IMG/VR virus record: IMGVR_UViG_3300024259_001623
Length of the DNA: 64,000 nucleotides
Direction: 5' to 3' (one strand)
From: a virus
Taxonomy: Duplodnaviria; Caudoviricetes
Below, piece by piece: positions 37,607 through 55,161 of the stretch. The stretch's first letter is position 1, and every line of letters starts with the position of its first letter. The position numbers were made by a program, and so were the translations under genes. The notes below the pieces were generated by a model. It was given only the letters and a program-made list of their open reading frames with translations. It made no database searches and was not told where the DNA came from.

Positions 37607-37963
37607 TTATAGACATGTTGAGAGATTGGCGACTAGCCCCAATAATTTATTATTGATATGATGGATATCACTTGCATCTAAAGAGTTAACAAAATTTATT
37701 GAATGTTGAATTATTTCTTTATCGCAGCCTGTGCTTTTGATATTGCCATCTCTTAATTTATATGTATACACTTTTAAAACATTTGCTAATGAATGCATTT
37801 GATTCATTACTTTTAATACTTTTGGATAATCATTATTTGTATTTGCATCACCATACGCATCTGTCAATTCCATAATCCGCTTGGCTGTTGATATTATCCA
37901 CTTTTCTGCTGAGGGGATATTAGCATCCTGTGCCGTTTTATACCATGATATTATTTTTCTCAA
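37607..37963 (-). CDS. Hypothetical protein with SWYKTAQ leader
   Basis: MRKIISWYKTAQ start. Confidence 0.7.
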   Translation of the reverse strand: MRKIISWYKTAQDANIPSAEKWIISTAKRIMELTDAYGDANTNNDYPKVLKVMNQMHSLANVLKVYTYKLRDGNIKSTGCDKEIIQHSINFVNSLDASDIHHINNKLLGLVANLSTCL

Positions 37964-38361: not shown

Positions 38362-38982
38362 TTAATTTCTTATATATAAGTAAACCGCATCATGTATTCC
38401 ATCCCATTTAGGTATATCAATACGTTCTACTTGCGACCATTCATTCTCAAGAGTGCAATGAAGGTCGTCATCTCCAGTGCATCCCCACCCTCCTTCTCCA
38501 ACATAAACTAGCTTATTTCCTTTAAAATTCTTTATAGCTTCATTCGCCATTGAATCAGCATATGGAGGCCAAACTGTCATCAAAACTCCATAACCACCAT
38601 ATTTCTCTAAAGCTTTTAAAGCATCTAAACTCTCTACATGAGTAAAAGACTTAGAAGAAGGATTAAATTTTTCTCCATAATAATCTGAATGTGCATCAGT
38701 AGCGGCAATATCTGCTCCTTCATCCTGTAGCAACTTGGCCCATAAACCATAACCAGCACCAATCTCTAATATTTTTTCGCCGGCAATAAAATCATTTATT
38801 TTTGATATGGCTTCTCTATTGGGAACAGACCAACCATAATCTTTTATATATTTATCTCTTCTATACCAATCCATCAAAGATTTATGCTTTTTATCTTGTA
38901 ATTCGTCAAGATAACCTTCACCGCCAGGCCCATAATGCTCCAAATCCTCATATAGCCCCATTGATGTTTTGTACCAATTCAT
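38362..38982 (-). CDS. Class I SAM-dependent methyltransferase with MNWYK leader
   Basis: WSVPN...ILEIGAGYGLWAKLL...ATD...WPPY...YVGEG..GCTG. Confidence 0.8.
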   Translation of the reverse strand: MNWYKTSMGLYEDLEHYGPGGEGYLDELQDKKHKSLMDWYRRDKYIKDYGWSVPNREAISKINDFIAGEKILEIGAGYGLWAKLLQDEGADIAATDAHSDYYGEKFNPSSKSFTHVESLDALKALEKYGGYGVLMTVWPPYADSMANEAIKNFKGNKLVYVGEGGWGCTGDDDLHCTLENEWSQVERIDIPKWDGIHDAVYLYIRN

Positions 38983-39356
38983 TAATTATACTCAAATATT
39001 CTAGGATTTCCAAATGCCCTATCTAACTCTTTTATAACCCTCTTTTTAGCAAAATCCATTCTGCTGATCGGGCCATCATAAACTATCGCAGGAAAATATA
39101 CCACACTGGCTGTATGCCTTTTAGCTTCATATCTGCCTCTAGCAAACATTTCATTCTTGTCTGGCCATAAGTCCAAATGAGTCAAAGTTTTACCTTCTTC
39201 ATTATATAAGTCTTTTATATCTAAACTAAAATCTTTATACATAACCCATATCTTATCGCCAGGAGCATCCTTATGTCCTACACTTAAATAGAAAGGATTC
39301 TCATATCTAGAATCATCAACAGGCAGGGCTATTTTTATTTGTTTATACCAGTTCAT
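38982..39356 (-). CDS. MNWYK-leader paralog family protein
   Basis: MNWYKQIKIALP...YLSVGH...W...H...ARGRY...FGNPRI. Confidence 0.85.
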   Translation of the reverse strand: MNWYKQIKIALPVDDSRYENPFYLSVGHKDAPGDKIWVMYKDFSLDIKDLYNEEGKTLTHLDLWPDKNEMFARGRYEAKRHTASVVYFPAIVYDGPISRMDFAKKRVIKELDRAFGNPRIFEYN

Positions 39357-39739
39357 TATCTATACTCAATTATTGTAGGATTATTAAATTGTTTATCCAA
39401 AACAGATATAATTTTTTCTCTCATTTTTTCTCTTCTAGGAGGAAATCGAACCATACTATATTTTTGTTCATAAACTAAACTTATTCTATGATTAAAATCT
39501 TCATATCTTCCTCTCGCTAACATATCAGACCGATCTGGCCATAAATCTTCATGAGTGAGTACAATACCATCTTCATTATATAAATCATAAACATCTAGAT
39601 AATAATCACTAAATAATGCCCATATCTGGTCCAAAGGTTTGTCCTGATGTCCTACACTTAAATACGAAGGGCGACGATGACCTCGTTCGTATCTTGTATC
39701 GACAGGCAATGCTATTTTTATTTTTTTATACCAGTTCAT
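39356..39739 (-). CDS. MNWYK-leader paralog family protein
   Basis: MNWYKKIKIALP...YLSVGH...LARGRY...FNNPTI; closest to its neighbour 38982..39356. Confidence 0.85.
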   Translation of the reverse strand: MNWYKKIKIALPVDTRYERGHRRPSYLSVGHQDKPLDQIWALFSDYYLDVYDLYNEDGIVLTHEDLWPDRSDMLARGRYEDFNHRISLVYEQKYSMVRFPPRREKMREKIISVLDKQFNNPTIIEYR

Positions 39740-40437
39740 TCTGCTTCCCTCAAATATCTAGCAGGAATGTCATTATAAAATATTACTGTACCATGACTTA
39801 ATCCATCCGAACTGTCCACTTCATAATAAAAATCCTCTAAACCAATCTTATGAGCTAATGTCTCTATCAATTCGGCCTCTTCTAAAGGCCCTTCTTTGCC
39901 CACAGTTGGCATGTAACCATCTCTTTTCATCTGTCCGACGTTAATCTCAATCACCTTATCATAATGGTTCCTGGGGGTTCCTGGGTCATCAGAAGTAAAC
40001 ACAGCAGACCCAGTTCCTCTGTTAGAAATCCCTCTAGTCTCATCTCTAGATTCAAGACCATTTCTTATTATATCATCAAACCTCTCTTCGCCAGTTCCAT
40101 GATATAACATAAATCCATCAGAAACGTCATCCCAAAATTCTTTATTAAAATCTCTTTCGTCTACATAACGATAAGCATTTCCGCTGTTCGCTATATTCTG
40201 GATCCAGTCTACAGGCTCTTGAACTTCATAATATCCACCTAATTCAATTATCACATGAGTACCATTAATAATGGCAGATATTATTCTATCACCATCGAAA
40301 TCAATGATCTCGAAGTCTTTAGTTAATCTCTGTATAAGATTTATAACTTCTTCATCGCTATTACTATCTTCAATATAAGATTCGTAATCTGCGATTAAGT
40401 CTGCTTGCTCAATTTGTGCTTGCTTATACCAGTTCAT
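39736..40437 (-). CDS. ADP-ribosyltransferase-fold (Tpt1/PARP-like HxT) protein with MNWYK leader
   Basis: MLYHGT...IIRNGLES...SAVFTSDD...VIEIN...IPARYL. Confidence 0.6.
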   Translation of the reverse strand: MNWYKQAQIEQADLIADYESYIEDSNSDEEVINLIQRLTKDFEIIDFDGDRIISAIINGTHVIIELGGYYEVQEPVDWIQNIANSGNAYRYVDERDFNKEFWDDVSDGFMLYHGTGEERFDDIIRNGLESRDETRGISNRGTGSAVFTSDDPGTPRNHYDKVIEINVGQMKRDGYMPTVGKEGPLEEAELIETLAHKIGLEDFYYEVDSSDGLSHGTVIFYNDIPARYLREAE

Positions 40438-41243
40438 ATTATATACGGATCTATTTTATCAATTATTCTTTTAAGTTGAGTTCCCCAACCTTTACGGTTG
40501 AAGTCAGTTATTTTATTTCCAATATCTTTTGCACTCCAAGGTAATCTATAATTATATCGTTTACCATTGATGTATAAAGTCATCTCTCCGTAACTGTTGG
40601 CTCCATCAACAATAACAGTAAGAGATTTTTTCTTTTCGGGCACTATTTTTTCTTCAGTCTGTTTTACATTAGGAACTGGTTTATCAAAATCGTATTTAAC
40701 AGGCTCGGCAAATCCGAATTGTCCTTGAGAGGCCCATCTTTCGGCTTTTTGTCCGATAGCAAAACCTCTTATCTTCATCGGATTGGCTTGTTCTATAATG
40801 TGAAATGGAACATTCTCATACCATTTATTATTACTCATCACATATATATTAAACATGTCTCTTTCTGCTTCTTCATTAAAGGCATCATATAAACCATTTG
40901 CTATATTTCTTAAATCTTGAGAGGTTAAAGTATTTGTTTCTACATTATTGCCTTCTAGGCGTTTCCATCCCCACTGAACCATAGCATATTCCCTAAGATC
41001 CGCTTCCCCTAAAATGAGTTTGATATCTTCTTCAGTTACTCCTCTTTCTTTGAGTTCTTCTTCGCTCATTAAAATATAATCAACTTCATTTGGATCAATG
41101 TCATATTTAGCCATAACCTGTTCAGCGACGTAAGCCTCATGATTGTAATCGCTTACGTCGCCATCAGCATATAATGCATTACCAGAATCATCTATCCAAT
41201 ATTCTCCAGAAACGGCTAATTTTATTTGTTTATACCAATTCAT
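40434..41243 (-). CDS. MNWYK-leader hypothetical protein (distinct domain)
   Basis: MNWYKQIKLA, then GEYWIDDSG...NHEAY...WGWKRL. Confidence 0.8.
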   Translation of the reverse strand: MNWYKQIKLAVSGEYWIDDSGNALYADGDVSDYNHEAYVAEQVMAKYDIDPNEVDYILMSEEELKERGVTEEDIKLILGEADLREYAMVQWGWKRLEGNNVETNTLTSQDLRNIANGLYDAFNEEAERDMFNIYVMSNNKWYENVPFHIIEQANPMKIRGFAIGQKAERWASQGQFGFAEPVKYDFDKPVPNVKQTEEKIVPEKKKSLTVIVDGANSYGEMTLYINGKRYNYRLPWSAKDIGNKITDFNRKGWGTQLKRIIDKIDPYII

Positions 41244-41680
41244 TAATCATCCTCGTATATAACAGGATTCCCAAAAGTATCATCTAATATCTGATATATT
41301 TTTTTATTTAAATATTCTTGTCTTTTAGGGTTTTTATCATATGACATATTTGTTAAAGAAACGGCATGTTTTTCTTTATCATATCTTCCTTTTGCCATCG
41401 CGTTATACCCGCTATGAGAATTGAGTCTAACATTACCAAACCTATCTATTGTTAAAGCTGGAAGAACTTTTATAGAAAAATCATAATAAATATACCATAT
41501 TTGATCTTTGTCTATATTTTCTAAAATTTGTTCTTGTATATTTTTTGGCAGAGAAGAAAGTTTTTTGTTTCTGTAATTTTTAGCATCAAAAAAACTACTA
41601 TGTCCTACATCAAAATATCCTACATCAGTAGGAGTATCCATTACAGGTAAAGCAATTTTTATTTGTCTATACCAATTCAT
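41243..41680 (-). CDS. MNWYK-leader paralog family protein
   Basis: MNWYRQIKIALP...YFDVGH...MAKGRY...FGNPVIY. Confidence 0.85.
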   Translation of the reverse strand: MNWYRQIKIALPVMDTPTDVGYFDVGHSSFFDAKNYRNKKLSSLPKNIQEQILENIDKDQIWYIYYDFSIKVLPALTIDRFGNVRLNSHSGYNAMAKGRYDKEKHAVSLTNMSYDKNPKRQEYLNKKIYQILDDTFGNPVIYEDD

Positions 41681-41682
41681 TA

Positions 41683-42132
41683 TTAAAATCCGTATATAGG
41701 AGCATTTTTAAATATATGATCTAATATTCTATAAATCCTTTTTTTAGAATATTCTTGTCTCTTAGGATTGTCAGATGATGGGAAATATCCTACAAATGAA
41801 ACTACATTTTTATTTTTATCATATCTACCCTGAGCTAAAACATCTTTTCCATTTATCGAGTCCCGATGCGTATTTATCATAATAAAGCCATTATCAGCTA
41901 TTTCCATTGCAGGGACTAAAAGAAAATTAAAATCTTTTAAGATATACCATAAAGCTTCTTTATGTTCAAAATCCCGTATGATTTTCTGCTCTTCTTCAGG
42001 ATATTCATTTATATTCGTATTATTATATTTTCTTGCAGAAAAGTTTACATTATGCCCAACGTCGAAATAAGTCATCTTACCAGGGGCTTCTGTAATAGGA
42101 ACAGCTAATTTTATTTGTTTATACCAATTCAT
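41683..42132 (-). CDS. MNWYK-leader paralog family protein
   Basis: MNWYKQIKLAVP...YFDVGH...LAQGRY...FKNAPIY. Confidence 0.85.
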   Translation of the reverse strand: MNWYKQIKLAVPITEAPGKMTYFDVGHNVNFSARKYNNTNINEYPEEEQKIIRDFEHKEALWYILKDFNFLLVPAMEIADNGFIMINTHRDSINGKDVLAQGRYDKNKNVVSFVGYFPSSDNPKRQEYSKKRIYRILDHIFKNAPIYGF

Positions 42133-42503
42133 TATCTGAATACCACTATATCAGGATTATCATAATATTTATCTAACATTTGAGAAGCTCGTTTAATTAT
42201 ATATTCTACTTGATGAGTCTTAGCATCATAAGAAATTTGTAAACTAGCTTTCTTGTTTCCGGATTTATCTATTACGAATCTGCCCGCAGCCAAATGACCT
42301 TGTAATTTGCCTTGAAAACTTCTACCATGTATTGCTTCCCTTCCACCAGGAGCGGTTAAAAAATTCCAATCTTTATCAATTAACCATAATTCTTCTTTTT
42401 GGGACCTGTTGAGATCCCAATCGTGACCAATATCTGTGTATATTAAATCTTGATCACGTTTCATAACAGGTAAAGCTACTTTTATTGTTTTATACCAATT
42501 CAT
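42132..42503 (-). CDS. MNWYK-leader paralog family protein
   Basis: MNWYKTIKVALP...YTDIGH...EELWLI...AAGRF...YDNPDI. Confidence 0.85.
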   Translation of the reverse strand: MNWYKTIKVALPVMKRDQDLIYTDIGHDWDLNRSQKEELWLIDKDWNFLTAPGGREAIHGRSFQGKLQGHLAAGRFVIDKSGNKKASLQISYDAKTHQVEYIIKRASQMLDKYYDNPDIVVFR

Positions 42504-42884
42504 TTAAAACTCATATATTGTGGGATTGCCATAATGTTGATCTAATATTTTAACAACTTTATTTTTTAATGCCCCTTGTTTTGCAATTTCTGAACTACCT
42601 GGGGCATTAATTGTTAAACTAACTTTTTTTTCTCCATTAGGTGTTACTTCATATCTGCCTTTTGCTAGATAAGCATTTGCGACTGTAGCAGAAAACATAG
42701 TATAATGTAAACGATTTTTGTAAGTAGGAACTCCAGTATGCAATTTCCAATGTCTATCTATCATCCATAATTCTTCTTCAATATCCCTGCTCTTATCAAA
42801 ATTATGTCCGACACTGGTATAATGTGATCCAACAGGAGCGTCCATAATAGGTAAAGCTACTTTTATTGTTTTATACCAATTCAT
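42504..42884 (-). CDS. MNWYK-leader paralog family protein
   Basis: MNWYKTIKVALP...YTSVGH...EELWMI...LAKGRY...YGNPTIY. Confidence 0.85.
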   Translation of the reverse strand: MNWYKTIKVALPIMDAPVGSHYTSVGHNFDKSRDIEEELWMIDRHWKLHTGVPTYKNRLHYTMFSATVANAYLAKGRYEVTPNGEKKVSLTINAPGSSEIAKQGALKNKVVKILDQHYGNPTIYEF

Positions 42885-43402
42885 TTCTTAATATCACATT
42901 CTGTCCTAGGTAAAAATAAATCTGTTAAACTAAACAGTACATTTTCGTCCCGTTTCATTTCTTTTATATTTTTTTCCGCATATTCTTTTAAAGAATCCCA
43001 ACATTTTCTCTCATCAATTTTTTTTGTCTCAGTTTCAGAATTATCTGTAGGAGAATAACCTCTTTCAAATTTCTTTAAATTAGAATTTCCCTGTTTCAAT
43101 GTAGGAATAAAAATAAATTTGTCATTTTTATATCTATCTTCTGCTATTTGACAACGAAAATACAATACAGGATTTTGCCAATCACCACCAGCTTCAAATG
43201 CTTCCGCTAAAATACTATAATTTTTGTCAAGATTATTTTTTGCGTCTAATTTTATTCTTTTTATATTACCTTTGGAAGTGTCATTTTCCAAATCAAAATA
43301 TATACCACTCTGCTCTTTTGCCTCATGGATCAACCTTTTCCATAAAACTCTTAATTCATTTTTATAATCAAATTCGTTTTGAGCTACTTTATACCAACTC
43401 AT
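42881..43402 (-). CDS. MSWYKVAQ-leader hypothetical protein (distinct domain)
   Basis: 173 aa; not alignable to the paralog domain. Confidence 0.75.
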   Translation of the reverse strand: MSWYKVAQNEFDYKNELRVLWKRLIHEAKEQSGIYFDLENDTSKGNIKRIKLDAKNNLDKNYSILAEAFEAGGDWQNPVLYFRCQIAEDRYKNDKFIFIPTLKQGNSNLKKFERGYSPTDNSETETKKIDERKCWDSLKEYAEKNIKEMKRDENVLFSLTDLFLPRTECDIKK

Positions 43403-43860
43403 GATTTTTGTACTCCAACAGTTATATGGAATTTATGCCCTTTACCATTGTAACTAGCTGGCAATCCATATCCCTTTCTTATATCCTTCAATTCAGGAGC
43501 CTCAATGGTCAAAAACCAAACTCTTTTCATATCATCCCAACCAGCAGGGTTAGTACTATATAATCCAGTTACTTTAAAACAAATCTCTTTGCCAACTTCT
43601 TTTAATTTTCCAGCCAATTCTTTTTCTTCTGCTTCTTCTGAAGATATAAACGAAACATGCGCTCCAATTCCATCTGCTCCAAAATAAGGAGGCTTAGAAG
43701 CTTCAGGAATCATTGGATAAAACCCCTCAACGATTTTGTCATTTACTTTTATGTAAGAAAAACCATCATCCTGCTGCTTTATCTCTCCTCGTAAGTCCGT
43801 TTCCTTTAATATGTTAGAAGCGACCTTAATTGAAAAGTTTTTGTTATACCAATTATTCAT
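43399..43860 (-). CDS. 2H phosphoesterase superfamily protein (Acb1/T4 gp57B-like) with NWY leader
   Basis: Two HxS/T motifs, GAHVSF and FHITV, about 80 aa apart. Confidence 0.75.
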   Translation of the reverse strand: MNNWYNKNFSIKVASNILKETDLRGEIKQQDDGFSYIKVNDKIVEGFYPMIPEASKPPYFGADGIGAHVSFISSEEAEEKELAGKLKEVGKEICFKVTGLYSTNPAGWDDMKRVWFLTIEAPELKDIRKGYGLPASYNGKGHKFHITVGVQKS

Positions 43861-44649
43861 TTAATTCCACCTGTATATATCCGGATTCCCGTAATAGTTA
43901 TCTAGAAAGCTTTCTACTCTTTTCGTCATATGTTCTAATCTTCTAGGATTTTCTCCTAGAGTATAATCCATTATTAAGCTTGCCTTTTTTTCTCCATCAC
44001 CAAACTCGTCAAATCTTCCTTTTGCTATTGCATCAAATACTTTATCACCAAATATCGAATTATGAGTGTTGCCACCCTTTCTAGGAATAGCTAACATTTC
44101 CCAATTTTTAGTTATTAACCATAATTCAGATTTGACTGGAGATTCTCCTCTTTGATTATAACTATGTTCGTGACCTATATCCAAATAGTCAAGACCATGA
44201 ATGTCTTTCTCCATTACAGGCAACGCAGTCTTTATTTCTTTATTAGCATATCTATAAATATTTGGATTCCCATACTTCTCATCTAAAATCTTTTCGATTC
44301 TGTTCATGAAATATTCTTCTCTGCCTGGATGATGAGCTTGTACTCCATAATCTAATAGAACACTTACATATTTATCTCCATCAGAAGATTCATCATATCT
44401 TCCCCTTGCTATGCCATGCAAAAAAACATCTGCTTGAAATTCAGATACATGAGTATTACTATCTGTTACAGGAACAGAAATAAATTCCCATTTATCATTG
44501 ATATACCATATTTCAGCGTATACAATTTTTCTTCTGTTTAATACACTGTTGTAGTTAGACGGCATCCTATGTCCAATATTTGTATAATGAACAGGAGGAT
44601 CTTTCTCCGTTATAGGTAACGCTATTTTTATTTCTTTATACCAATTCAT
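43861..44649 (-). CDS. MNWYK-leader paralog family protein with two fused domain copies
   Basis: The second unit begins KEIKTALPV...YLDIGH...IAKGRF...YGNPDIY. Confidence 0.85.
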   Translation of the reverse strand: MNWYKEIKIALPITEKDPPVHYTNIGHRMPSNYNSVLNRRKIVYAEIWYINDKWEFISVPVTDSNTHVSEFQADVFLHGIARGRYDESSDGDKYVSVLLDYGVQAHHPGREEYFMNRIEKILDEKYGNPNIYRYANKEIKTALPVMEKDIHGLDYLDIGHEHSYNQRGESPVKSELWLITKNWEMLAIPRKGGNTHNSIFGDKVFDAIAKGRFDEFGDGEKKASLIMDYTLGENPRRLEHMTKRVESFLDNYYGNPDIYRWN

Positions 44650-45116
44650 TAATTAAATACCGATATCTTAGGATTATTAAAATGTTTATCTACAGATCTA
44701 AGCATCATTTTTTCAACATGATTTCTTCTATTAATGGAATATCCTCTTAATGCAGAAGTATATACGAAAGAAACTATATTGTTATCTCCTTCATATCTAC
44801 CTTTGGCTAAAATAGATTGATCTAGAAGCCCCCAGACATCCCAATGAGTATATCTTTTGATAATACCTATATCATTAACACCTATCGCTGGATTCTCAAT
44901 TATCTCATAATTTTTTTGCATTATCCATATAGTTTCTTTATTTTTATCTATTTTTTTCTTGACTGATTTTTGAGCTTCTGGCTCTAGTTTATGAAAAATC
45001 ATACCTTCAACATCTCCAATTTCAAAATATCCTTCATGACCATAATCCATATAATGACTTGATGGAATAGTCTTATCAACTGGAAGAGCTAATTTTATTT
45101 GTTTATACCAATTCAT
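44649..45116 (-). CDS. MNWYK-leader paralog family protein
   Basis: MNWYKQIKLALP...YMDYGH...LAKGRY...FNNPKI. Confidence 0.85.
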   Translation of the reverse strand: MNWYKQIKLALPVDKTIPSSHYMDYGHEGYFEIGDVEGMIFHKLEPEAQKSVKKKIDKNKETIWIMQKNYEIIENPAIGVNDIGIIKRYTHWDVWGLLDQSILAKGRYEGDNNIVSFVYTSALRGYSINRRNHVEKMMLRSVDKHFNNPKISVFN

Positions 45117-45530
45117 TTAAAACTCATATATTGCTGGGTTATTGAATTCTCTATCTAATATATTAGAAACTTGTTTTTTAATATATTCCATCCTTCTAGG
45201 GTTTGTTGTATCTGGATCTACATTAATTGCTACGCTAGTTTTTCCTGAACCATCTCTGTGTTTTATATATCTTCCTGATGCTATAGAATCTTTTGATCTA
45301 TAACTAAAATCTAAATCAAAGGCGTAGTCATGAATCGTTCCGATGTTCATGTCAGTTACGGGGATAGTCTTAATATCAAAATTATAATCTATTGTCCACA
45401 AAATCTCTTGAACAACTTTATCAAATCTAAAATGTTCCATCTTGTCATAATGACCTATATCTGTATAGTCCATCTCTCTTGGAACATTAACTACAGGTAA
45501 TGCTAATTTTATAACTCTATACCAATTCAT
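45117..45530 (-). CDS. MNWYK-leader paralog family protein
   Basis: MNWYRVIKLALP...YTDIGH...IASGRY...FNNPAIY. Confidence 0.85.
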   Translation of the reverse strand: MNWYRVIKLALPVVNVPREMDYTDIGHYDKMEHFRFDKVVQEILWTIDYNFDIKTIPVTDMNIGTIHDYAFDLDFSYRSKDSIASGRYIKHRDGSGKTSVAINVDPDTTNPRRMEYIKKQVSNILDREFNNPAIYEF

Positions 45531-45914
45531 TTAAAACTCATATATAACAGGATTATCAAATTGAATATCTAATATTTTATGTACTTTTTCTTTAATCTTT
45601 TCTAATCTTCTAGGATGTAAATCACCTTGATATGTATTTATAATAAGACTAGTTTTCTTTTTTCCAGCTAAATCTAATATAAATCTACCAGAAGCAATTG
45701 AATCATAATACATTTTGCCAAAAAAATCAAAATGAGCATCTCTCTGCGTTTCCGGAGTTATAGGATAAGATTGGAAATTCCAATTTTCGTCTACTATCCA
45801 TATGATTTCTTGTTGATTAAATTTTTTATCAGTATGCCCTATGTCTGAATATTGCATATAACCAGGCGTATCAACAACAGGCAATGCTAATTTTATTTCT
45901 TTATACCAATTCAT
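45531..45914 (-). CDS. MNWYK-leader paralog family protein
   Basis: MNWYKEIKLALP...YSDIGH...IASGRF...FDNPVIY. Confidence 0.85.
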   Translation of the reverse strand: MNWYKEIKLALPVVDTPGYMQYSDIGHTDKKFNQQEIIWIVDENWNFQSYPITPETQRDAHFDFFGKMYYDSIASGRFILDLAGKKKTSLIINTYQGDLHPRRLEKIKEKVHKILDIQFDNPVIYEF

Positions 45915-46285
45915 TATTCATAATCATATATTGCAGGGTTATCAAATGTCTGATCCAATATTTTCGCAACTCTTTGTTTAATAAATTCTAATCGTTGTGG
46001 AGATGTTTCTCGCAATATAAAATGGGACCAATAAACGCTTACTACTTTTTCTCCATTTTCTTTTTGCATAAATCTACCATAAGCCATTCCGTTTTCTAGC
46101 TCATCTTCTGTAAAAATATTAACATGATTAAGGGCTTCTGTATCCGTTTTTATATTCCAATTTTTATCTATTAACCATAATGTTACATTATTTTTATTCA
46201 GACCATGACCTATATTAACATAATGTTGCGGTTTGTTTCGCTCCGTTATAGGCAATGCGATTTTTATAACTCTATACCAGTTCAT
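45914..46285 (-). CDS. MNWYK-leader paralog family protein
   Basis: MNWYRVIKIALP...YVNIGH...MAYGRF...FDNPAIY. Confidence 0.85.
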   Translation of the reverse strand: MNWYRVIKIALPITERNKPQHYVNIGHGLNKNNVTLWLIDKNWNIKTDTEALNHVNIFTEDELENGMAYGRFMQKENGEKVVSVYWSHFILRETSPQRLEFIKQRVAKILDQTFDNPAIYDYE

Positions 46286-46379: not shown

Positions 46380-47468
46380 TTATACTAATTCATTTATCGC
46401 TTTTTTTACATCTATTAATCCATATCCAGTCTTCTCGTCTTTACCAGCTTTGTCTAAATCAATACTAGCCCACTTCAAATGATCCTTGATCTGAGCAACA
46501 GTATCTACAGGAGTCTTACCACCAATCTTTCTATGCTTCGCTAACATCAATGCAACCACACCAGCTACCCAGGGAGTTGCCATAGATGTACCACTATATG
46601 CAGCATAACTATCTTTAGGAACAGTACTTAAAATGTTAACACCAGGTGCCATAAAATCTAAATTCTCGCCTGTTTGACTAAAACCAGCACGTAAATTGTT
46701 TTTATCTAATGCTCCAATAGCAATAGTCTTTTTGTAATTACCAGGATAATCCAATACGCCCTTATCCCCAGAATTACCAGCAGCACATATAATAGGAACA
46801 TTTCTAGCATATGCCTTATCTACCATTTTACGCATACCAGGATGATCATAAGTCCCGCCCAATGACATACTAATAATATCACAACCTAAACTCAACGCCT
46901 TCTCAATACCACCAGAAACCCAATCATAAGAACCATAACCCTGATCATTTAAAACCTTTATGACCTGAACTCTTGCTCTAGGAGCTACACCTACAATACC
47001 CTCAGCATTATTATTGGCAGTTATAATACCAGTTACATGAGAACCATGACCATGAGCGTCAGATACGTTACTACGAGCAGCCTTAAAACGACGAACAAAG
47101 TAGGTTACTTTTTTTTGCGCACTTTTTAAATTCTTCCTCATTCCGTTTCGTTTCTTAGTATTTCTCGTCCTCTTCAACCTCTTTTGATATAAACGAACTT
47201 GCTTTTTCCAGTATCTGGCCCAACTTAAATAACTGTATGCTTTACGAGCTTGAGTCATGCTGAATTTAAATGCAATTGATCCCTGTAGATCGACATGATC
47301 ATATTGACAGCCAGTATCCAATACAGCTATCTTAATCCCCTCACCCTGAGTCTCATCCCATATCGAAGGTATGTTCTGACGAATCATCTCAGCATTAACA
47401 ACCTGATCAAATGAACTGTTAACACCAGCACTCTTTAAATATGTATCTAATAACGAAACTTTATCCAT
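46380..47468 (-). CDS. Subtilisin-like serine protease (S8) with a basic insertion
   Basis: AVLDTG (Asp), HGHGSHVTG (His), AAGN (oxyanion Asn), GTSMATP (Ser); no signal peptide. Confidence 0.95.
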   Translation of the reverse strand: MDKVSLLDTYLKSAGVNSSFDQVVNAEMIRQNIPSIWDETQGEGIKIAVLDTGCQYDHVDLQGSIAFKFSMTQARKAYSYLSWARYWKKQVRLYQKRLKRTRNTKKRNGMRKNLKSAQKKVTYFVRRFKAARSNVSDAHGHGSHVTGIITANNNAEGIVGVAPRARVQVIKVLNDQGYGSYDWVSGGIEKALSLGCDIISMSLGGTYDHPGMRKMVDKAYARNVPIICAAGNSGDKGVLDYPGNYKKTIAIGALDKNNLRAGFSQTGENLDFMAPGVNILSTVPKDSYAAYSGTSMATPWVAGVVALMLAKHRKIGGKTPVDTVAQIKDHLKWASIDLDKAGKDEKTGYGLIDVKKAINELV

Positions 47469-49174: not shown

Positions 49175-50047
49175 ATGACAAAACATACTAAAAAAGAACA
49201 TACTTGGGATTATTGCGGCCATTGTAATTATCCTTTCGTTAGATGCGGGACATGCGGTATGAATTGCTGTAGCGGATCAACCGGCGAAATAAACGGTGAA
49301 CCCTGCCCAGATTGTAATGATGCTTACGAAAAACAACACGAAGAACCACCAAACTTCTCCAAAAAATATATTAAACAAAAAGAAAATGAAAATAAAGCTT
49401 TTTGGGATAACTGTACATCCGAACGTTCTCTTAAAATCAAAATCAAAAATCAAATTACATACATAATAAACTATTTTAAATATTATAAGTCCACATATAA
49501 ATGTATTAGAGATAGAGTTGTACTTCCTTTCCTAAGAGGATTAAAGGGAGAATTCTATTGTCGTTGGATACATCATAATAATCAATTCGCTCAATTGTAT
49601 AGTTGGGGAGGACACGATTGGCTACATAGAAAACTTAATAAACATCGTCCTCGCTATTGCCAGACTTGCGGTAATAAATGGAATACAACCAGAAAAACTG
49701 AAGATGATCCCACAGGACCAACTATAGAACAACAATATTGTATACAATGGAAAGCACAGAAAAGCACAGAAAAGCAAAGGAATAAAATGATTAATAAAAA
49801 TTGTAAACATTATCCTTGCCACGAAAAAAATGAATTGGAAAACTGCCTGCTCTGCTTTTGTCCTATCTATCCCTGCGAAAATAATAAACTAGGCCACTTT
49901 ATTAAAAATGAATCACAAACTAAAGTTTGGGACTGCTCTAATTGTACTTTATTTCATAAAGATCATGTAGCTAAGAAAATATTAGAAATAGCTAATATGT
50001 TTAATATGTCGGATGAGTCGGATGAGTCGGATGAGTCGGATAAATAA
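49175..50047 (+). CDS. Cys-rich protein ending in a cysteine-rich small (zf-like) domain
   Basis: N-terminal CxxC clusters; C-terminal CKHYPCH...CLLCFCPIYPC...WDCSNCTLFH; ends in (TCGGATGAG)x3. Confidence 0.6.
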   Translation: MTKHTKKEHTWDYCGHCNYPFVRCGTCGMNCCSGSTGEINGEPCPDCNDAYEKQHEEPPNFSKKYIKQKENENKAFWDNCTSERSLKIKIKNQITYIINYFKYYKSTYKCIRDRVVLPFLRGLKGEFYCRWIHHNNQFAQLYSWGGHDWLHRKLNKHRPRYCQTCGNKWNTTRKTEDDPTGPTIEQQYCIQWKAQKSTEKQRNKMINKNCKHYPCHEKNELENCLLCFCPIYPCENNKLGHFIKNESQTKVWDCSNCTLFHKDHVAKKILEIANMFNMSDESDESDESDK

Positions 50048-50314
50048 AATATTTAATATTTGAATTTGCTGGAAAAAAGTTTGTGTGGTGTGATGGAAAA
50101 TCAAGGTATCCATTAGTATATATGGATGTTACTATATATGAACAGGGTAGGGTAGGGGGGTGGCACACAGGAAAATTTCCCTGAACATATCCCAACTATT
50201 TACCGCTATAGGTATATGTGAAACGAGAAAGGCTATTAACCTTCCTCGCTCTTAGGGTTTTTATTAATTATAATTTTTAACAGTTCGTAAAGTTCTTCGG
50301 CCTACCGCATGGCT

Positions 50315-50533
50315 CTACCCTTTCATTAGGTTCGCTATCGTTCTGTTCTTTTCTTTTGTGACTGTCGTGTCAGGGAGATTCGGTTTGCTCAATTTCGTTC
50401 TGACAAGCCAGGCAATGGCCTTGCTTGTCGATACAGTCAACGCAAACTTCAGCGTGACAGCGTTGGCATTGATACAGCCAAGCTTGCTGTTCTTCTGTGC
50501 CGCATTGATGACAACGCGACTCGTAAGGTTCAT
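50315..50533 (-). CDS. Small basic hypothetical protein
   Basis: 72 aa; on the same strand as all genes in this region. Confidence 0.45.
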   Translation of the reverse strand: MNLTSRVVINAAQKNSKLGCINANAVTLKFALTVSTSKAIAWLVRTKLSKPNLPDTTVTKEKNRTIANLMKG

Positions 50534-50539
50534 TGTTCA

Positions 50540-50785
50540 TTAGGATTTCCCTTGTTCTGCTCTTTTCTTTTGTGCTGCTACCGTCAGGGGATGCTTGCGA
50601 ATGGGGAACCGAGCCTTTTGCCGCTCTGCATACTCTGCCAGATTCCTCTTCATTCTGGCGACGGCTTGTGTTGGCGTCAGTCCCATGATCGAGGCGGTGC
50701 GGACCATACCATTGATCAGTCCGTTATGCTCTATCTTGCTGCCCCAGAGCCGCTCTATTTCTTGTCGCCATTCGCCTTTTGTCAT
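50540..50785 (-). CDS. Small hypothetical protein
   Basis: ATG 50785 (MTKGEW) after AAAGGG, downstream of a TCCCTGA motif. Confidence 0.65.
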   Translation of the reverse strand: MTKGEWRQEIERLWGSKIEHNGLINGMVRTASIMGLTPTQAVARMKRNLAEYAERQKARFPIRKHPLTVAAQKKRAEQGKS

Positions 50786-50980
50786 TGTCTGATCCCTTTC
50801 TGCCCTTAACAATTGCGACTATTTGTTCAGGGATTGCTTGAGTTCATCCAAAAACCTTAACGCTTTGAGTTTCAGAATAAAAACATTTTCCTCAAAATTC
50901 CAATAGACGATAATGATAGCGATGGTTGCCAAGAAGTCCCACATGATTATATCCTTTCTGCCTTTAACAATTGCAGAGGT

Positions 50981-51196
50981 TTATTCAGGGAAAGGGTAAA
51001 CGTCCATTGCCCAAGGGAAGGCTTGGTGTAGGCCAGTCAGTGAGCTTTGGCAGAGCGTATGCCGTTCAGCTTGCCCATAGACCCTTATGGATTCTTTTAC
51101 CGTCCAGACCATCGTGGGCTTGTGCTTATTGCCCATCGTATCCAACAGAGTGAATTGCTGTCCGTTGTCTAGTGTGCAGAGTCCAACTTTAGCCAT
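50981..51196 (-). CDS. Small hypothetical protein
   Basis: 71 aa; AAAGGG RBS; ends across a TCCCTGA motif. Confidence 0.65.
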   Translation of the reverse strand: MAKVGLCTLDNGQQFTLLDTMGNKHKPTMVWTVKESIRVYGQAERHTLCQSSLTGLHQAFPWAMDVYPFPE

Positions 51197-51268
51197 TGTC
51201 TTACCCTTTCTGCCTTCTTTAATTATTGGCTTTATTTCAGGGGGCGAAAAATAAATGCAATAAAAAAA

Positions 51269-51308
51269 GATGTAGCCCCTAGCTTTTGCTAGTCGATTGG
51301 GCTACATC
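51269..51308 (-). terminator. Intrinsic terminator
   Basis: GATGTAGCCC/GGGCTACATC 10-bp stem followed by T7 on the minus strand. Confidence 0.75.
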
Positions 51309-51351
51309 TTCGGGAGGTCAGGGGCGACTTCTCGCCTCTGTGACTATGGTT

Positions 51352-51450
51352 CTAGTCGTCCAGTCCGTCCTCTTCGCTGTCCGTGCAGAGATGGAAGGGG
51401 CAAGTTTCGCAGTCGTCGTGGTCGCAGACAGTCTCGTGTGATTCGGGCAT
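51352..51450 (-). CDS. 32-aa Cys/acidic peptide
   Basis: MPESHETVCDHDDCETCPFHLCTDSEEDGLDD; below the ORF-track cutoff; similar to 62163..62315. Confidence 0.5.
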   Translation of the reverse strand: MPESHETVCDHDDCETCPFHLCTDSEEDGLDD

Positions 51451-51515
51451 TTTCGATTCCTTCTGTAAGAGGTTTGTTTCGCTACCCTTAACAATTGACC
51501 GTTACGCTTCAGGGA

Positions 51516-51854
51516 TCAGGACTTGATCGTCGTATGCCAGCGATTCCGGCAGGATGAGCATTTGCAACTGGCATCGCCAGTCCGGGTATTCAGGGTATAG
51601 AGTACCCGGGTGGACTTGCAAGCGGGGCAGGGGACTTCCGGAAGGGGGTCCGGGACGCTGTTGGTATCCTTCCAGGTCCCCCGGTCGCCGGTGTCGTGGG
51701 CGTTCAGGATTGCATCAGCTTCGGCAAGTTCTTCGCATTTTGTGCAAGTTTTTTCGTTGTGGTCGGCGGTAGAGGCCAGGACTTCGTTCCGGTGGGCTTC
51801 CAAGGCGTCGGCGGTCATGGTTTCAAGGGCGTTCATAATTCGGGAAGTGTTCAT
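51516..51854 (-). CDS. Small zinc-finger protein
   Basis: CTKC, CPAC, CKCSSC; AAAGGAG RBS. Confidence 0.75.
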   Translation of the reverse strand: MNTSRIMNALETMTADALEAHRNEVLASTADHNEKTCTKCEELAEADAILNAHDTGDRGTWKDTNSVPDPLPEVPCPACKSTRVLYTLNTRTGDASCKCSSCRNRWHTTIKS

Positions 51855-52049
51855 TTTGTAGCTCCTTTGTTGCCCTTAACAATTGACCGTTATTTATCAG
51901 GGAGATAGTAGGGAAAGAGAGAAAAGGCGATTCCATATCCTTTTTACAGGCCAATACGGGACAATCCAACTCTCTTTCGCCAGAGCCGATAGTTGACTCT
52001 CGGGAACATAAACCCTTCTCTACTGTCTCTTATGATTGATCGTTATTTA

Positions 52050-52160
52050 TCAGGGAATAAAGAATAGCAGGGCTACGACAACAGCAGCGCCAGCAACAGC
52101 AAAAGACGCAAAGCCTATAACCATGATAAGCTCGATCAACGTGAAAGCTGTTTTCTTCAT
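52050..52160 (-). CDS. 36-aa prepilin-type N-terminal methylation peptide
   Basis: MKKTAFTLIELIMVIGFASFAVAGAAVVVALLFFIP*; the stop codon is the TGA of a TCCCTGA motif. Confidence 0.7.
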   Translation of the reverse strand: MKKTAFTLIELIMVIGFASFAVAGAAVVVALLFFIP

Positions 52161-52205
52161 TGTTGTTCACTTCTCTTTTTGCGATTTTTTATTCTTGTTC
52201 AGGGA

Positions 52206-52367
52206 CTAAAGAAACCAGATAAAATTGCTGATGAAAAGGCAAAGAGCAGTAAGATAGAGAACTATTCCTATTTTTATTCTTGTACGGTTAGCTGTCCAGC
52301 CCATCTTACCGACGATGCAGGCGGTGAACAGTAGGGTAAAAGCTACAATCAGTATTATCAAAGCCAT
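52206..52367 (-). CDS. Small two-TM membrane protein
   Basis: MALIILIVAFTLLF...; AAGGAG RBS. Confidence 0.65.
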   Translation of the reverse strand: MALIILIVAFTLLFTACIVGKMGWTANRTRIKIGIVLYLTALCLFISNFIWFL

Positions 52368-52377
52368 TGTTTTCTCC

Positions 52378-52683
52378 TTATGCCTCATAAACGCATACTT
52401 GGCAGTTATTCAGGGGTTCGATCATGCCTCCAGCAGCGTTGACTTGTTCGATTGCTCTCATTAAGACTGGCTCTTGTGGCATACCGTATCGCCCGGTGTC
52501 GCCAGCCCAGATCGACGTTCCGCCGAAACAGGCGATCCACTCGAAAGGTCCATCCCAACAGAGCGTGGGACGTTCGAAACCCTTTTCTTGGCCGAGGATA
52601 GCGGGTTCGCCGTATTCCTTGGCGATGACGTTAAGGGCTTCAGCGAGAGTCTGTAGGAGTTCTTCTTGCTTCTTGTCGGTCAT
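52378..52683 (-). CDS. Hypothetical protein
   Basis: ATG 52683 (MTDKKQEE) after AAAGGGA. Confidence 0.7.
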   Translation of the reverse strand: MTDKKQEELLQTLAEALNVIAKEYGEPAILGQEKGFERPTLCWDGPFEWIACFGGTSIWAGDTGRYGMPQEPVLMRAIEQVNAAGGMIEPLNNCQVCVYEA

Positions 52684-53018
52684 TGTTATTCCCTTTCGGT
52701 AGTAAACAATAGATAGGGTTATAACAGGGAATTGGCTCGCCGACGATCCATCCATACAGAGAGAATGAGCAAGATCATGCCGCCGGGACCAGCGATGATT
52801 AACAGACTTGCAAGGACAACATCGAGGATTGTCATGAGTTCCATTGTTTGTTCCCTTTCAGTCTATTTCTTTTATGTTTGTTCTTCAGGGATTTAATCGG
52901 CACAAAACATCAAAACAAGCCCAATAACCCACATAACCATATTGCCAGTACATAGACCGACAATCAGAAGAATCAATCCTGCTAGTGCCATCTCTTTATC
53001 CTCTTATTTACAGGGATA

Positions 53019-53216
53019 TTATCCCACTCTGAATTTCTTATCTCTTTCCATAATTCGTTTGACAGTTGGCCAGGCCCACTCATAGCTGGCTCCGCTTTCA
53101 ATATCGACAACATGAGCGAAGTCGTGGAGTCTTCCAGCGATCATAGCTGGTTGATCGTTCAGTAAGCAGCTTTCGCCGGCGTACTGGTCTGCAATTTGTT
53201 GGATTGTTTCGTTCAT
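53019..53216 (-). CDS. Small hypothetical protein
   Basis: 65 aa; leader shared with 53470..53715. Confidence 0.7.
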   Translation of the reverse strand: MNETIQQIADQYAGESCLLNDQPAMIAGRLHDFAHVVDIESGASYEWAWPTVKRIMERDKKFRVG

Positions 53217-53414
53217 ACTCTTTCCCTTTTGTGTTTTTTATTCAGGGAGTCTTTGCTTCATAGCCCGTCGTACTTTTCTTCGGGCAAGGGTTTTCATTTT
53301 CCGGACAGAAGTTCTCCAAGGATTACAACAAGGGCAATGCCAACCACCAGGGCCAGAGTGAATATATCTATGATATATCTTTCCGAGTCCTTTTTTCCTT
53401 CCGGGCATCGTTGC

Positions 53415-53761
53415 CATTGTTTGTCCTTTCTACTCTTTCCCTTTTGAGTTTTTTATTCAGGGACGAAAATCAACCCAGCGGCCCTTGTTCCGGTGTATTG
53501 TAGCTGGGCCGGGGTTGTAAAGCCATGTGTTTATCGAACTTAGAAGTAAGCTGGATGCTGTCTATGGCATCTTTCGCATCTACCCCGGATACGTAACCTA
53601 CGCAGCGACCGGACGGGGTGTGAACAGTCCAGAGCGGGTAAGCGGGCTTGTCGCAATCGGGGCAGCGGAAGTTGTTTGTCAGTGTTCCGCAAGAGCATTC
53701 TCTGAGTTGATCCATTGTTTGTCCTTTCTACTCTTTCCCTTTTGCGTTTTTTATTCAGGGA
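53415..53761. repeat. 49-nt direct repeat (53415-53463 and 53713-53761) flanking one gene
   Basis: CATTGTTTGTCCTTTCTACTCTTTCCCTTTTG[A/C]GTTTTTTATTCAGGGA with one mismatch; partial third copy at 53216-53248. Confidence 0.95.
53470..53715 (-). CDS. Small protein with N-terminal zinc ribbon
   Basis: CSCG...CPDC. Confidence 0.7.
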   Translation of the reverse strand: MDQLRECSCGTLTNNFRCPDCDKPAYPLWTVHTPSGRCVGYVSGVDAKDAIDSIQLTSKFDKHMALQPRPSYNTPEQGPLG

Positions 53762-53896
53762 TTCTTTTTCAACCAGCAAATCAAGTCGATAATCCCTAAA
53801 AAGACAATCGTTAAGGAAATTGCCAGTCCTTTTTCTAGTGGAGTCATTCCCAGATCCTTTCGGCTTTTTTTATTTTGATTTATTTTTCAGGGAACG

Positions 53897-54256: not shown

Positions 54257-54389
54257 CTGGATAATACCATCTGGCTTCTTTCCCTACTGAGACAAGATAG
54301 ACAACAGACGGGCAGGGAGAACCGTATCTAGGTTCTGTCTTGACAATTGTTCCTCTCCCATCTTCTGTTCTAAAACGTACATGCTTCAT
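54207..54389 (-). CDS. Small hypothetical protein
   Basis: 60 aa; AAGGAG RBS. Confidence 0.6.
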   Translation of the reverse strand: MKHVRFRTEDGRGTIVKTEPRYGSPCPSVVYLVSVGKEARWYYPDGKRFPAKKTNGDKNA

Positions 54390-54424
54390 CCTGATATGAA
54401 AACTCCTTACTTATTCAGGGATAA

Positions 54425-55101: not shown

Positions 55102-55161
55102 TGTTCATTTCCTCTTTGTAAGGGGTTTTCGTTCTTACCCTTTGTTATTGTTTGGGATTGT

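What the first reader, a model, noticed from the sequence alone, without database searches (positions are those of the whole stretch)
38982..46285. Twelve diverged copies of an uncharacterised ~120-aa domain in a tandem array
Seen: 11 genes (one carrying two copies) share LP[VI]-x6-12-Y-x-[DSN]-[IVY]-G-H, a W-x-I segment, a central His in most copies, [AY/SK/Q]-G-R-[YF], and [FY]-x-N-P-x-I at the C-terminus. Loops between these anchors are hypervariable, and neighbours are sometimes closest relatives (38982/39356, 42132/42504). I do not recognise the domain. Inference: the invariant GH/H/GR residues suggest a catalytic or ligand-binding site, and the expansion suggests diversifying selection against many host targets, as at the polymorphic T4 IPI locus.
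Basis: partly seen in the sequence, partly recalled or inferred. Interest (0 to 1): 0.8.

Follow-up and report, generated by a model that had tools for sequence, protein, structure and literature searches.

The report
Orphan His-His-Arg domain array in megaphage
A giant uncultivated phage carries twelve old, diverged copies of a small protein domain that matches no described family; the copies keep an enzyme-like set of invariant residues and start with the same short tag as the unrelated enzymes interleaved with them, so they look like accessory effectors, but what they act on is unknown.

Summary
A family profile finds exactly 12 domains in 11 minus-strand genes (38982-46285; E 1e-30 to 1e-66) and none elsewhere in the window.

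The family is real and undescribed:
- 199 clusters at 50% identity in metagenomes.
- No match in Pfam, PHROGs, NCBIfam, PDB sequences, GenBank phages or 185,579 prokaryote genomes.

Across 141 sequences, two His and Gly-Arg are 99-100% invariant. Tyr, Trp and Ser are about 90% conserved. Three segments vary 4-5 fold in length.

- The MNWYK start is a tag, also carried by five unrelated interleaved genes (2H phosphoesterase, ART-like, MTase-like).
- An S8 subtilase sits upstream here and in a related phage.
- The domain also occurs fused with HExxH and PcfJ modules.
- The copies are old: some are closer to proteins of other phages than to each other.
- Diversifying selection cannot be tested because dS is saturated.

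Best reading (about 0.4): tagged small enzymes or ligand binders of differing specificity.

This scan had already noted the tag on other genomes. It had not noted the domain on other DNA.

The parts
45914..46285 (-). Copy 1 of the domain (123 aa), first gene of the array
   Evidence: E 5e-36; AF2 model m8b43181f1080, pLDDT 80.5
45531..45914 (-). Copy 2 (127 aa); the reference for residue numbering
   Evidence: E 5e-40; AF2 model m55df1db94eb9, pLDDT 83.8, pTM 0.78
45117..45530 (-). Copy 3 (137 aa); 52% identical to copy 2
44649..45116 (-). Copy 4 (155 aa), with a 37-aa H26-W38 insert
43861..44649 (-). Two-domain gene (262 aa): copies 5 and 6, boundary near 44250/44251. The second copy keeps K-E-I-K-T-A-L-P-V but has lost M-N-W-Y
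   Evidence: two domains, iE 1e-35 and 1e-30
42504..42884 (-). Copy 7 (126 aa)
42132..42503 (-). Copy 8 (123 aa). The first 39 nt are 38/39 identical to copy 7, although the proteins are 38% identical
41683..42132 (-). Copy 9 (149 aa), long H26-W38 insert
41243..41680 (-). Copy 10 (145 aa), long H26-W38 insert
39356..39739 (-). Copy 11 (127 aa)
38982..39356 (-). Copy 12 (124 aa); 54% identical to copy 11 and 63% to P0012 from another contig
43399..43860 (-). Interleaved tagged gene that is not a family member: 2H-SAK phosphoesterase
   Evidence: Pfam PF22547, E 6e-11; starts MNNWYNK
42881..43402 (-). Interleaved tagged gene (starts MSWYKVAQ); no family found
40434..41243 (-). Interleaved tagged gene (starts MNWYKQIKLAV). 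Its N-terminal part is fused to the domain in P0107, and its C-terminal INGKRY..KGWG module recurs in P0054
39736..40437 (-). Interleaved tagged gene (starts MNWYKQAQ) with a weak PARP/ART-like match
   Evidence: Pfam PF00644, E 0.0016, below cut-off
38362..38982 (-). Last tagged gene of the array (starts MNWYKTSM); methyltransferase-like
   Evidence: phrog_19090 E 2e-34; weak Methyltransf_23 match
46380..47468 (-). S8 subtilase, same strand, 94 nt upstream of copy 1. The Asp/His/Ser motifs are present
   Evidence: Pfam PF00082, E 2e-57. In another contig an S8 gene is likewise followed by a 76%-identical ortholog of copy 1

Best explanation
The twelve copies belong to an undescribed protein family found, so far, only in uncultivated huge phages. 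Each copy is a compact alpha/beta domain of about 95 residues (strand, strand, helix, strand, strand, long helix, strand). In front of it lie a fixed-length N-terminal arm (A-L-P-[VI], about 10 residues, then Y-x-D-I-G-H) and a disordered MNWYK tag.

I read them as small enzymes, or less likely tight ligand binders. They would use one invariant site (His26, His60, Gly75-Arg76, helped by Tyr21, Trp38 and Ser88). The length-variable segments between the anchors would give each paralog a different specificity. The residue set resembles phosphoryl-transfer or phosphoester chemistry on a nucleotide, nucleic acid or phosphoprotein.

The copies appear to be made from one tightly coupled operon together with a 2H phosphoesterase, an ART-like protein and a methyltransferase-like protein that carry the same tag. 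The tag is most plausibly an address and/or processing signal shared by the phage's accessory effectors. Candidates are loading into the head as with the T4 capsid-targeting sequence, or cutting by a phage protease such as the adjacent S8 subtilase.

Shown: the family, its invariant residues, its fold class, the tag on unrelated cargo, the synteny with S8, and the fusions with peptidase-motif and PcfJ modules.

Inferred: catalysis, substrate class, paralog-specific targets, and what the tag does.
For: - Family: 199 representatives at E<=1e-3 and 121 at <=1e-10 among 1.84 billion proteins.
- Conservation: His26, His60 and Gly75 100%, Arg76 99%, Trp38 94%, Tyr21 93%, Ser88 89% in 141 sequences. 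The Tyr-to-His spacing is fixed, while three other segments vary 4-5 fold in length.
- Model: pLDDT 83.8, pTM 0.78. Residues 1-9 are below pLDDT 50. Trp38, Arg76 and Ser88 lie in strands 1, 3 and 4, and His60 lies at the start of helix 1.
- Tag on five unrelated array genes, and on other cargo in other contigs, including a weak ArdC-like protein.
- Synonymous codon variation within the tag shows that selection acts on the peptide.
- Start and stop codons of neighbouring array genes overlap or abut (ATGA or TAATG junctions).
- An S8 gene followed by the first copy is conserved in a diverged relative.
- Fusions: the domain occurs with HExxH modules (P0099, P0054), with PcfJ (P0146; L004 2706-4550), and in 4-5 tandem copies (P0001, P0037). 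The best viral fold hit is a module of a 1415-aa uncultured phage protein (prob 1.00, TM 0.53).
- The pI of the copies ranges from 5.8 to 9.3, so their surfaces differ.
Against:
- Two His plus an acidic residue could form a structural metal site instead of a catalytic one.
- Invariant residues also occur in non-enzymatic ligand sponges.
- Nothing here shows that the proteins are packaged, injected or cleaved.
- Several fused forms lack the MNWY part, so the tag is not obligatory for the domain.
- Positive selection is untestable.
Confidence: 0.4

Rival explanations
1. The family is a divergent relative of the Janus/PHPT1 phosphohistidine phosphatases. His60 at the start of helix 1, Arg76 and Ser88 would correspond to PHPT1 His53, Arg78 and Ser94. 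The twelve paralogs would remove phosphate from P-N linked targets such as host histidine kinases, phosphotransfer proteins or PTS components.
For: With the better model, the top two Foldseek PDB hits are human PHPT1 (2nmm_C E 0.0088 prob 0.75; 2nmm_A E 0.010), and 2nmm_B, 2ai6 and 2hw4 are also listed. Janus-A and PHPT1 recur in the Swiss-Prot AFDB search, aligned over query residues 33-126, which is the whole core. They also appear. PHPT1 is about 125 aa, has six strands flanked by two helices, and has active-site residues Lys21, His53, Ala54, Arg78, Ser94 and Ala96 (PMC4817053). The order His ... Gly-Arg ... Ser and the overall size match.
Against: All E-values exceed 0.001. TM is only 0.23-0.33 and rmsd 7-9 A. 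PHPT1 is absent from the top 50 of both VIA-align runs (Z cut 3.4-4.1). There is no sequence signal in Pfam or in the PDB profile search. The invariant His26 and Tyr21 have no PHPT1 counterpart that I could establish. No residue-level alignment was available.
Confidence: 0.15
2. The family is a set of non-catalytic sponges or binders. The conserved pocket would sequester a small nucleotide-derived immune signal or bind a conserved feature of host proteins, and the variable loops would tune specificity, as with phage sponge proteins.
For: The domain is small. The conserved aromatic (Tyr, Trp) and basic or polar (His, His, Arg, Ser) residues suit nucleotide binding. It is co-arrayed with a 2H phosphoesterase and an ART-like gene, which are classes often linked to nucleotide signalling.
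Against: Two His and an Arg that are 99-100% invariant at 14% mean column identity are more typical of catalysis. There is no similarity to known sponge families in Pfam, PHROGs or the fold searches. Twelve or more paralogs exceed the number of plausible signal classes.
Confidence: 0.15
3. The family is a set of structural or internal virion proteins, comparable to the paralog families of phiKZ inner-body proteins or the T4 internal proteins. The invariant residues would serve folding, metal binding or assembly, and the tag would be a propeptide removed during head maturation.
For: A tandem paralog array with a shared N-terminal peptide next to a protease gene. The leader is disordered in the model. 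The comparison with phiKZ and T4 rests on my own knowledge and was not tested here.
Against: The pI spans 4.5-9.8 across the family, with no uniform basic DNA-binding character. The same tag is on evident enzymes. The domain also occurs without the tag inside long multidomain proteins. The window shows no recognisable head genes nearby.
Confidence: 0.15
4. The conserved 5' ends act mainly at the nucleic-acid level, as recombination or translation-reinitiation cassettes that spread and shuffle genes. On this reading the array would be a by-product of such shuffling rather than a set of specialised proteins.
For: Copies 7 and 8 share 38 of 39 identical leader nucleotides while the proteins are only 38% identical, which suggests local gene conversion. 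Stop and start codons overlap and internal Shine-Dalgarno sites are poor.
Against: Asn, Tyr, Lys/Arg, Ala, Leu and Pro codons vary synonymously within and between phages while the peptide is kept. The domain cores are under purifying constraint on the specific residues. Paralogs are retained across phages.
Confidence: 0.05

Closest known systems
T4 internal proteins IPI/IPII/IPIII and Alt with their capsid-targeting sequence
   Same: Several unrelated or diversified small proteins share a short N-terminal peptide. The locus is polymorphic and concerned with anti-host functions. A protease is a plausible processing partner.
   Different: There is no sequence or fold relation (no phage hit; no PHROG). 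The tag sequence differs. The neighbouring protease is an S8 subtilase, not a gp21-type prohead protease. Packaging and cleavage have not been shown. Here one domain family is expanded to 12 copies.
Polyvalent proteins of phages and conjugative elements (Iyer et al. 2017, PMC5512222)
   Same: Payload-type domains (2H, ART-like, methyltransferase-like, ArdC-like) occur together. The domain is also found fused in long multidomain polypeptides with HExxH motifs and PcfJ, and as a module of a 1415-aa phage protein.
   Different: In this phage the payloads are separate genes, each with its own tag, rather than one polypeptide. The domain matches none of the Pfam models derived from that work. The HExxH modules were recognised by motif only.
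Janus/PHPT1 phosphohistidine phosphatase (PF05005; PDB 2NMM, 2HW4, 2AI6)
   Same: Size is about 125 aa and the arrangement is alpha/beta. The order His (at a helix start) ... Gly-Arg ... Ser is shared. It is the top-ranked Foldseek PDB hit.
   Different: The scores are not significant (E 0.009, TM 0.30). It is not among the best VIA-align matches, and there is no sequence signal. The extra invariant Tyr21/His26 arm has no established counterpart.
Gelsolin / ADF-H domains

Membership tests
Janus/PHPT1 (PF05005) | Significant sequence or profile match to the family | tested here: not met
   Pfam scan of all 137 members at E<=1 showed no recurring family. The profile search against PDB sequences at E<=10 did not list PHPT1.
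Janus/PHPT1 (PF05005) | Same fold (six strands flanked by two helices) | tested here: inconclusive
   Foldseek: 2nmm_C E 0.0088, prob 0.75, TM 0.30, rmsd 7.5 A. Janus-A and PHPT1 at E 0.015-0.05. Not in the top 50 of VIA-align.
Janus/PHPT1 (PF05005) | Catalytic His at the start of helix 1, with Arg and Ser from the following strands (His53, Arg78, Ser94; PMC4817053) | tested here: inconclusive
   His60 starts helix 60-64, Arg76 lies in strand 73-79 and Ser88 in strand 85-91. The order agrees, but no residue-level superposition could be made.
2H phosphoesterases | Two H-x-T/S motifs | tested here: not met
   Neither invariant His is followed by a conserved Thr or Ser at +2 in the 12 copies (alignment). 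There is no Pfam 2H hit, whereas the neighbouring gene 43399-43860 does hit 2H-SAK.
T4-type capsid-targeted internal proteins | Short N-terminal peptide shared by otherwise unrelated proteins | tested here: met
   MNWYK-type starts on 11 family genes and 5 unrelated genes of the array, and on one small + strand ORF at 15907. The same holds in other contigs.
T4-type capsid-targeted internal proteins | Tag removed by the prohead protease; protein present in the virion and injected | not testable with these tools
   There are no proteomic or expression data, and no prohead protease was identified in the window.
T4-type capsid-targeted internal proteins | Homology to IPI/IPII/IPIII | tested here: not met
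   tblastn against 50,697 phage records found no match. PHROGs gave none for any of the 12 copies.
Polyvalent-protein payload domains (Iyer 2017) | Occurs in multidomain polypeptides together with peptidase or effector domains | tested here: met
   P0099 (two HExxH modules plus the domain), P0054 (the domain, an HELGH module, then two more copies), P0146 and L004 2706-4550 (the domain plus PcfJ, PF14284 E 3e-11 and 1e-8), and P0001 and P0037 (4-5 copies). The peptidase nature of the HExxH modules rests on the motif only.
Polyvalent-protein payload domains (Iyer 2017) | Is one of the described domains (Pfam LPD, PBECR and related models) | tested here: not met
   No Pfam model recurs among the 137 members at E<=1.
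Gelsolin/ADF-H | Fold match clearly above background | tested here: inconclusive

The most novel reading that the evidence does not exclude
The array is a battery of twelve PHPT1-like phosphohistidine or phosphoramidate phosphatases, a class not known from any virus. The megaphage would deliver them, or make them early, to erase histidine phosphorylation on different host two-component, phosphorelay or PTS proteins. Each paralog's variable loops would select a different target.
Probability: 0.08. Interest if true: 0.85.

Novelty: new variant of a known kind. Interest (0 to 1): 0.55.

Why it matters
Huge phages carry hundreds of genes with no assigned function. This is a cleanly defined, previously undescribed family of about 200 clusters with an enzyme-like invariant site, expanded to a dozen long-retained paralogs in one genome. 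It sits among recognisable anti-host enzymes that share the same N-terminal tag. If the site is catalytic, the family adds a new enzyme class to the phage counter-defence repertoire. It would also give a natural series of specificity variants on one scaffold. If the tag proves to be a loading or processing signal, the family is its most abundant cargo and the easiest handle for testing it, for example through neo-N-termini in particle proteomes or cleavage by the adjacent subtilase.

Tried and rejected
- Family libraries: Pfam on each copy and on all 137 aligned members at E<=1, PHROGs and NCBIfam gave no family.
- PDB sequences: the profile search gave a best E of 0.2, to the PlyL amidase. 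The two His align to its zinc ligands, but the spacing is incompatible (34 against 100 residues), so I rejected it.
- Homodimer prediction of copy 2: no answer (score 0.17, below the mark). It counts neither for nor against oligomerisation.
- dN/dS between the closest paralogs: synonymous sites are saturated, so the result is uninformative.
- Ortholog dN/dS: the only retrievable second contig (L007) is 99.98% identical, and the diverged orthologs (76%, 69%, 63%) lie in samples whose DNA could not be fetched.
- Cellular genomes: the pattern scan of 185,579 species genomes found nothing. No whole genome is held for the window.
- GenBank phages: tblastn with copy 2 and with P0001 found nothing. 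P0037 hit T4-like phages only through its unrelated N-terminal 142 residues.
- Promoter and terminator scan of the array: not above chance.
- Alternative genetic codes for the ORF-poor 50-64 kb stretch: none opens long frames.
- Other motif ideas (HNH, GIY-YIG, LAS peptidase, HPr-like, RNase T1/BECR): I considered these from memory and dropped them, because their defining motifs or spacings are not present in the alignment and Pfam gave no support.
- PHPT1 residue-level alignment: not made, because no tool supplied the PHPT1 sequence or coordinates and I did not type one from memory.


Full report
**What is there**

The stretch 38362-46285 is a head-to-tail run of 16 minus-strand genes. Stop and start codons overlap or abut (ATGA or TAATG junctions), and few internal ribosome-binding sites are recognisable.

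An alignment of the 12 copies has 15 invariant columns and 26-42% identity to the first copy. A profile made from 141 family sequences, run against every open frame of 50 aa or more in the window, finds exactly these 12 domains (E 1e-30 to 1e-66). Any other gene matches only at the leader positions. The observation therefore stands, with three corrections:
- The central His is in every copy.
- Neighbour pairs are closest relatives in four cases (54, 52, 47 and 43% identity). The cited pair 42132-42503 / 42504-42884 is not one of them (38%). That pair only shares a nearly identical first 39 nt, 38 of 39.
- The MNWYK start is not a property of the family.

**The family outside the window**

The 12-copy profile, scored against 1.84 billion representative proteins, finds 199 at E<=1e-3 and 121 at E<=1e-10. 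Most are 105-160 aa, and about two thirds begin MNW[YF]-K-like.

The window's own copy is recorded on contigs up to 434,625 bp. An IMG/VR fragment with two copies is rated 9% complete at 47 kb. Both point to very large phages.

Nothing was found in 50,697 GenBank phage records or in a pattern scan of 185,579 prokaryote species genomes. No Pfam, PHROG or NCBIfam model matches any member. The family is real, confined so far to uncultivated huge phages, and undescribed.

**Conservation pattern**

Numbering follows copy 45531-45911. In 141 aligned sequences with 14% mean column identity, conservation is as follows:

| Residue | Conservation |
|---|---|
| His26 | 100% |
| His60 | 100% |
| Gly75 | 100% |
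| Arg76 | 99% |
| Trp38 | 94% |
| Tyr21 | 93% |
| Leu114 | 91% |
| Ser88 | 89% |
| Asn120-Pro121-x-Ile123 | 81-90% |

The Tyr21-to-His26 spacing is 5 in every sequence, and the Pro11-to-Tyr21 spacing has a median of 10. Three segments vary widely in length: His26-Trp38 (7-37 aa), Trp38-His60 (17-42 aa) and His60-Arg76 (10-38 aa). This is the profile of a fixed site on a scaffold with variable surroundings.

The pI of the 12 copies runs from 5.8 to 9.3, and none of them contains cysteine.

**Structure**

AlphaFold2 with 137 sequences gives pLDDT 83.8 and pTM 0.78. Residues 1-9, the tag, are below pLDDT 50, and the arm up to residue 30 scores 67-68.

The confident core runs strand 34-40 (Trp38), strand 46-50, short helices 60-69 (His60 at the start), strand 73-79 (Gly75-Arg76), strand 85-91 (Ser88), long helix 100-117, strand 122-125. 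From strand 2 onward the order is beta-alpha-beta-beta-alpha-beta, a ferredoxin-like order. That is my inference from the element order, not a verified topology.

No library gives a convincing relative:
- Foldseek against PDB gives no E<=0.001.
- AFDB clusters return one unnamed 121-aa marine-sediment protein, which is likely a family member.
- BFVD returns a module of a 1415-aa protein from an uncultured phage (prob 1.00, TM 0.53).

One lead recurs. Human phosphohistidine phosphatase PHPT1 is the top Foldseek PDB hit with the better model (E 0.0088, prob 0.75). Janus-A and PHPT1 align over the whole core in the Swiss-Prot models. PHPT1's published active site (His53, Arg78, Ser94, with Lys21; six strands and two helices; PMC4817053) has the same order as His60, Gly75-Arg76 and Ser88 here.

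Against this lead, TM is 0.23-0.33, PHPT1 is not among the best VIA alignments, there is no sequence signal, and I could not make a residue-level alignment. I keep it as a rival at about 0.15.

**The tag and the company the family keeps**

Five genes inside the array have unrelated sequences but the same start:
- a 2H-SAK phosphoesterase (PF22547, E 6e-11)
- a weak PARP/ART-like protein
- a methyltransferase-like protein (phrog_19090, E 2e-34)
- two proteins with no family

In other contigs the same start heads further cargo, including a protein with a weak ArdC N-domain match and an HExxH motif. Asn, Tyr, Lys/Arg, Ala, Leu and Pro codons vary synonymously while the peptide is kept, within this phage and between phages. 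Selection therefore acts on the peptide, not on the DNA.

Within the family, the segment K-x-I-K-x-A-L-P-[VI] follows the tag at fixed distance from the core. It survives between domains in fused proteins, where M-N-W-Y is often lost. Examples are the window's two-domain gene and P0015, P0078 and P0001. Some fusions (P0099, P0131) keep N-W-Y-K internally. I therefore separate a true N-terminal tag (MNWYK) from an arm that belongs to the domain.

An S8 subtilase with its Asp/His/Ser motifs present lies 94 nt upstream on the same strand. In another contig an S8 gene is again followed directly by a 76%-identical ortholog of copy 1. Whether it acts on the tag is unknown.

Earlier notes of this scan read the same tag, in this and in other megaphage genomes, as a head-loading signal whose core resembles the cutting sites of the capsid protease. 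I could not test that claim in this window and use it only as a lead.

**Age of the array**

In a maximum-likelihood tree of 139 sequences the window's copies do not form one clade. Three copies are closer to proteins from other contigs than to any paralog in the window, where the maximum is 54%:
- copy 6 is 69% identical to P0007
- copy 12 is 63% identical to P0012
- copy 8 is 57% identical to P0027

A contig carrying P0012 has gene sizes of 143, 126, 234 and 127 aa, echoing the local order around the ART-like gene. The paralogs have therefore been kept as distinct genes through phage divergence.

Between the closest paralogs dS is 0.74-1.7, which is saturated, and dN/dS is 0.3-0.8. Diversifying selection can be neither shown nor excluded from these data. 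The second contig I could fetch belongs to the same population, with 1 mismatch in 4820 nt.

**Architectures elsewhere**

The domain also occurs in these forms:
- in 4-5 tandem copies in one polypeptide (P0001, P0037)
- after two HExxH modules (P0099)
- flanking an HELGH module (P0054)
- fused to a PcfJ-like domain in two independent proteins (P0146; L004 2706-4550)
- fused to the N-terminal part of the window's gene 40434-41243 (P0107)

This matches the 'polyvalent protein' theme of phage and plasmid payload domains (PMC5512222). The domain is none of the Pfam models from that work, and the peptidase nature of the HExxH modules rests on the motif alone.

**Verdict**

The finding is a genuine, undescribed domain family with an enzyme-like invariant site. 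It is expanded into a long-retained 12-copy array and embedded in a tagged set of accessory enzymes next to a conserved subtilase.

My best explanation (about 0.4) is a set of small enzymes, or less likely binders, with one chemistry and different specificities, made as part of the phage's tagged effector arsenal. The substrate, the role of the tag and any selection regime remain inferences.

The rivals are a PHPT1-like phosphatase (a specific version of the best explanation), a sponge, an internal structural protein, and a nucleic-acid-level cassette.

The concept of paralog arrays of tagged accessory proteins is known from T4 and phiKZ (own knowledge). The domain and the tag are new variants of it. 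This scan had already noted the tag on other genomes. The domain itself was found only on this genome in the scan's records.

Noticed in passing
window 50000-64000: GC rises to 0.42-0.47, against about 0.31 in the array, and there are almost no ORFs above 120 aa. Reassigning TGA, TAG or TAA does not open long frames. Scattered tRNAs are present, including an Rfam tRNA match spanning 142 nt at 63432-63573 that ARAGORN did not call. Another agent of this scan reads the stretch as an array of mini-genes with a phage-specific promoter.
   Followed up: partly
L001 6307-10623 (IMG/VR contig 3300035698_011774): About twelve consecutive small minus-strand genes (72-121 aa) all end in the same C-terminal tail, roughly [DE]-F-x-[DE]-K-I-[KR]-D-R-[LM]. 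This is a second kind of tagged tandem family, this time tagged at the C-terminus, in a huge-phage fragment that also carries MNWYK-tagged genes.
   Followed up: no
window 42504-42884 and 42132-42503: The first 39 nt of these two neighbouring copies are 38/39 identical although the proteins are only 38% identical. This suggests local gene conversion or recombination at the leader.
   Followed up: partly
P0037 residues 1-142 (metagenomic protein with 4-5 copies of the domain): Its untagged N-terminal module is homologous (32-52% identity, E down to 3e-21) to a conserved hypothetical protein in 349 T4-like phage records. Examples are Pelagibacter phage HTVC008M gp141 and Enterobacter phage EC-W1 ECW1_0103, the latter lying between the helicase and primase genes.
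   Followed up: partly
window 40434-41243: The C-terminal module of this tagged gene (I-N-G-K-R-Y ... K-G-W-G) recurs at the C-terminus of the multidomain protein P0054. Its N-terminal part (G-E-Y-W-I-D-D-S-G) recurs in P0107, fused to the domain, and in L004 5265-5927. It appears to be built from two mobile modules that travel with the family.
   Followed up: partly
window 6283-7923: A 546-aa protein combines a Nucleotid_trans domain (PF03407, E 9e-29) with an exostosin GT47 domain (PF03016, E 3e-12). Both are glycosyltransferase families better known from eukaryotes. It sits in a block of methyltransferase and glycosyltransferase genes.
   Followed up: no
window 15907-16032 (+): A 41-aa ORF with a good Shine-Dalgarno site starts MNWYKIIKISQ. 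It is the only tag-bearing frame in the window outside the array.
   Followed up: no
window 37607-37963 (-): This gene reads I-I-S-W-Y-K-T-A-Q a few codons after its TTG start. It may be a further tagged gene with a misplaced or unusual start codon.
   Followed up: no
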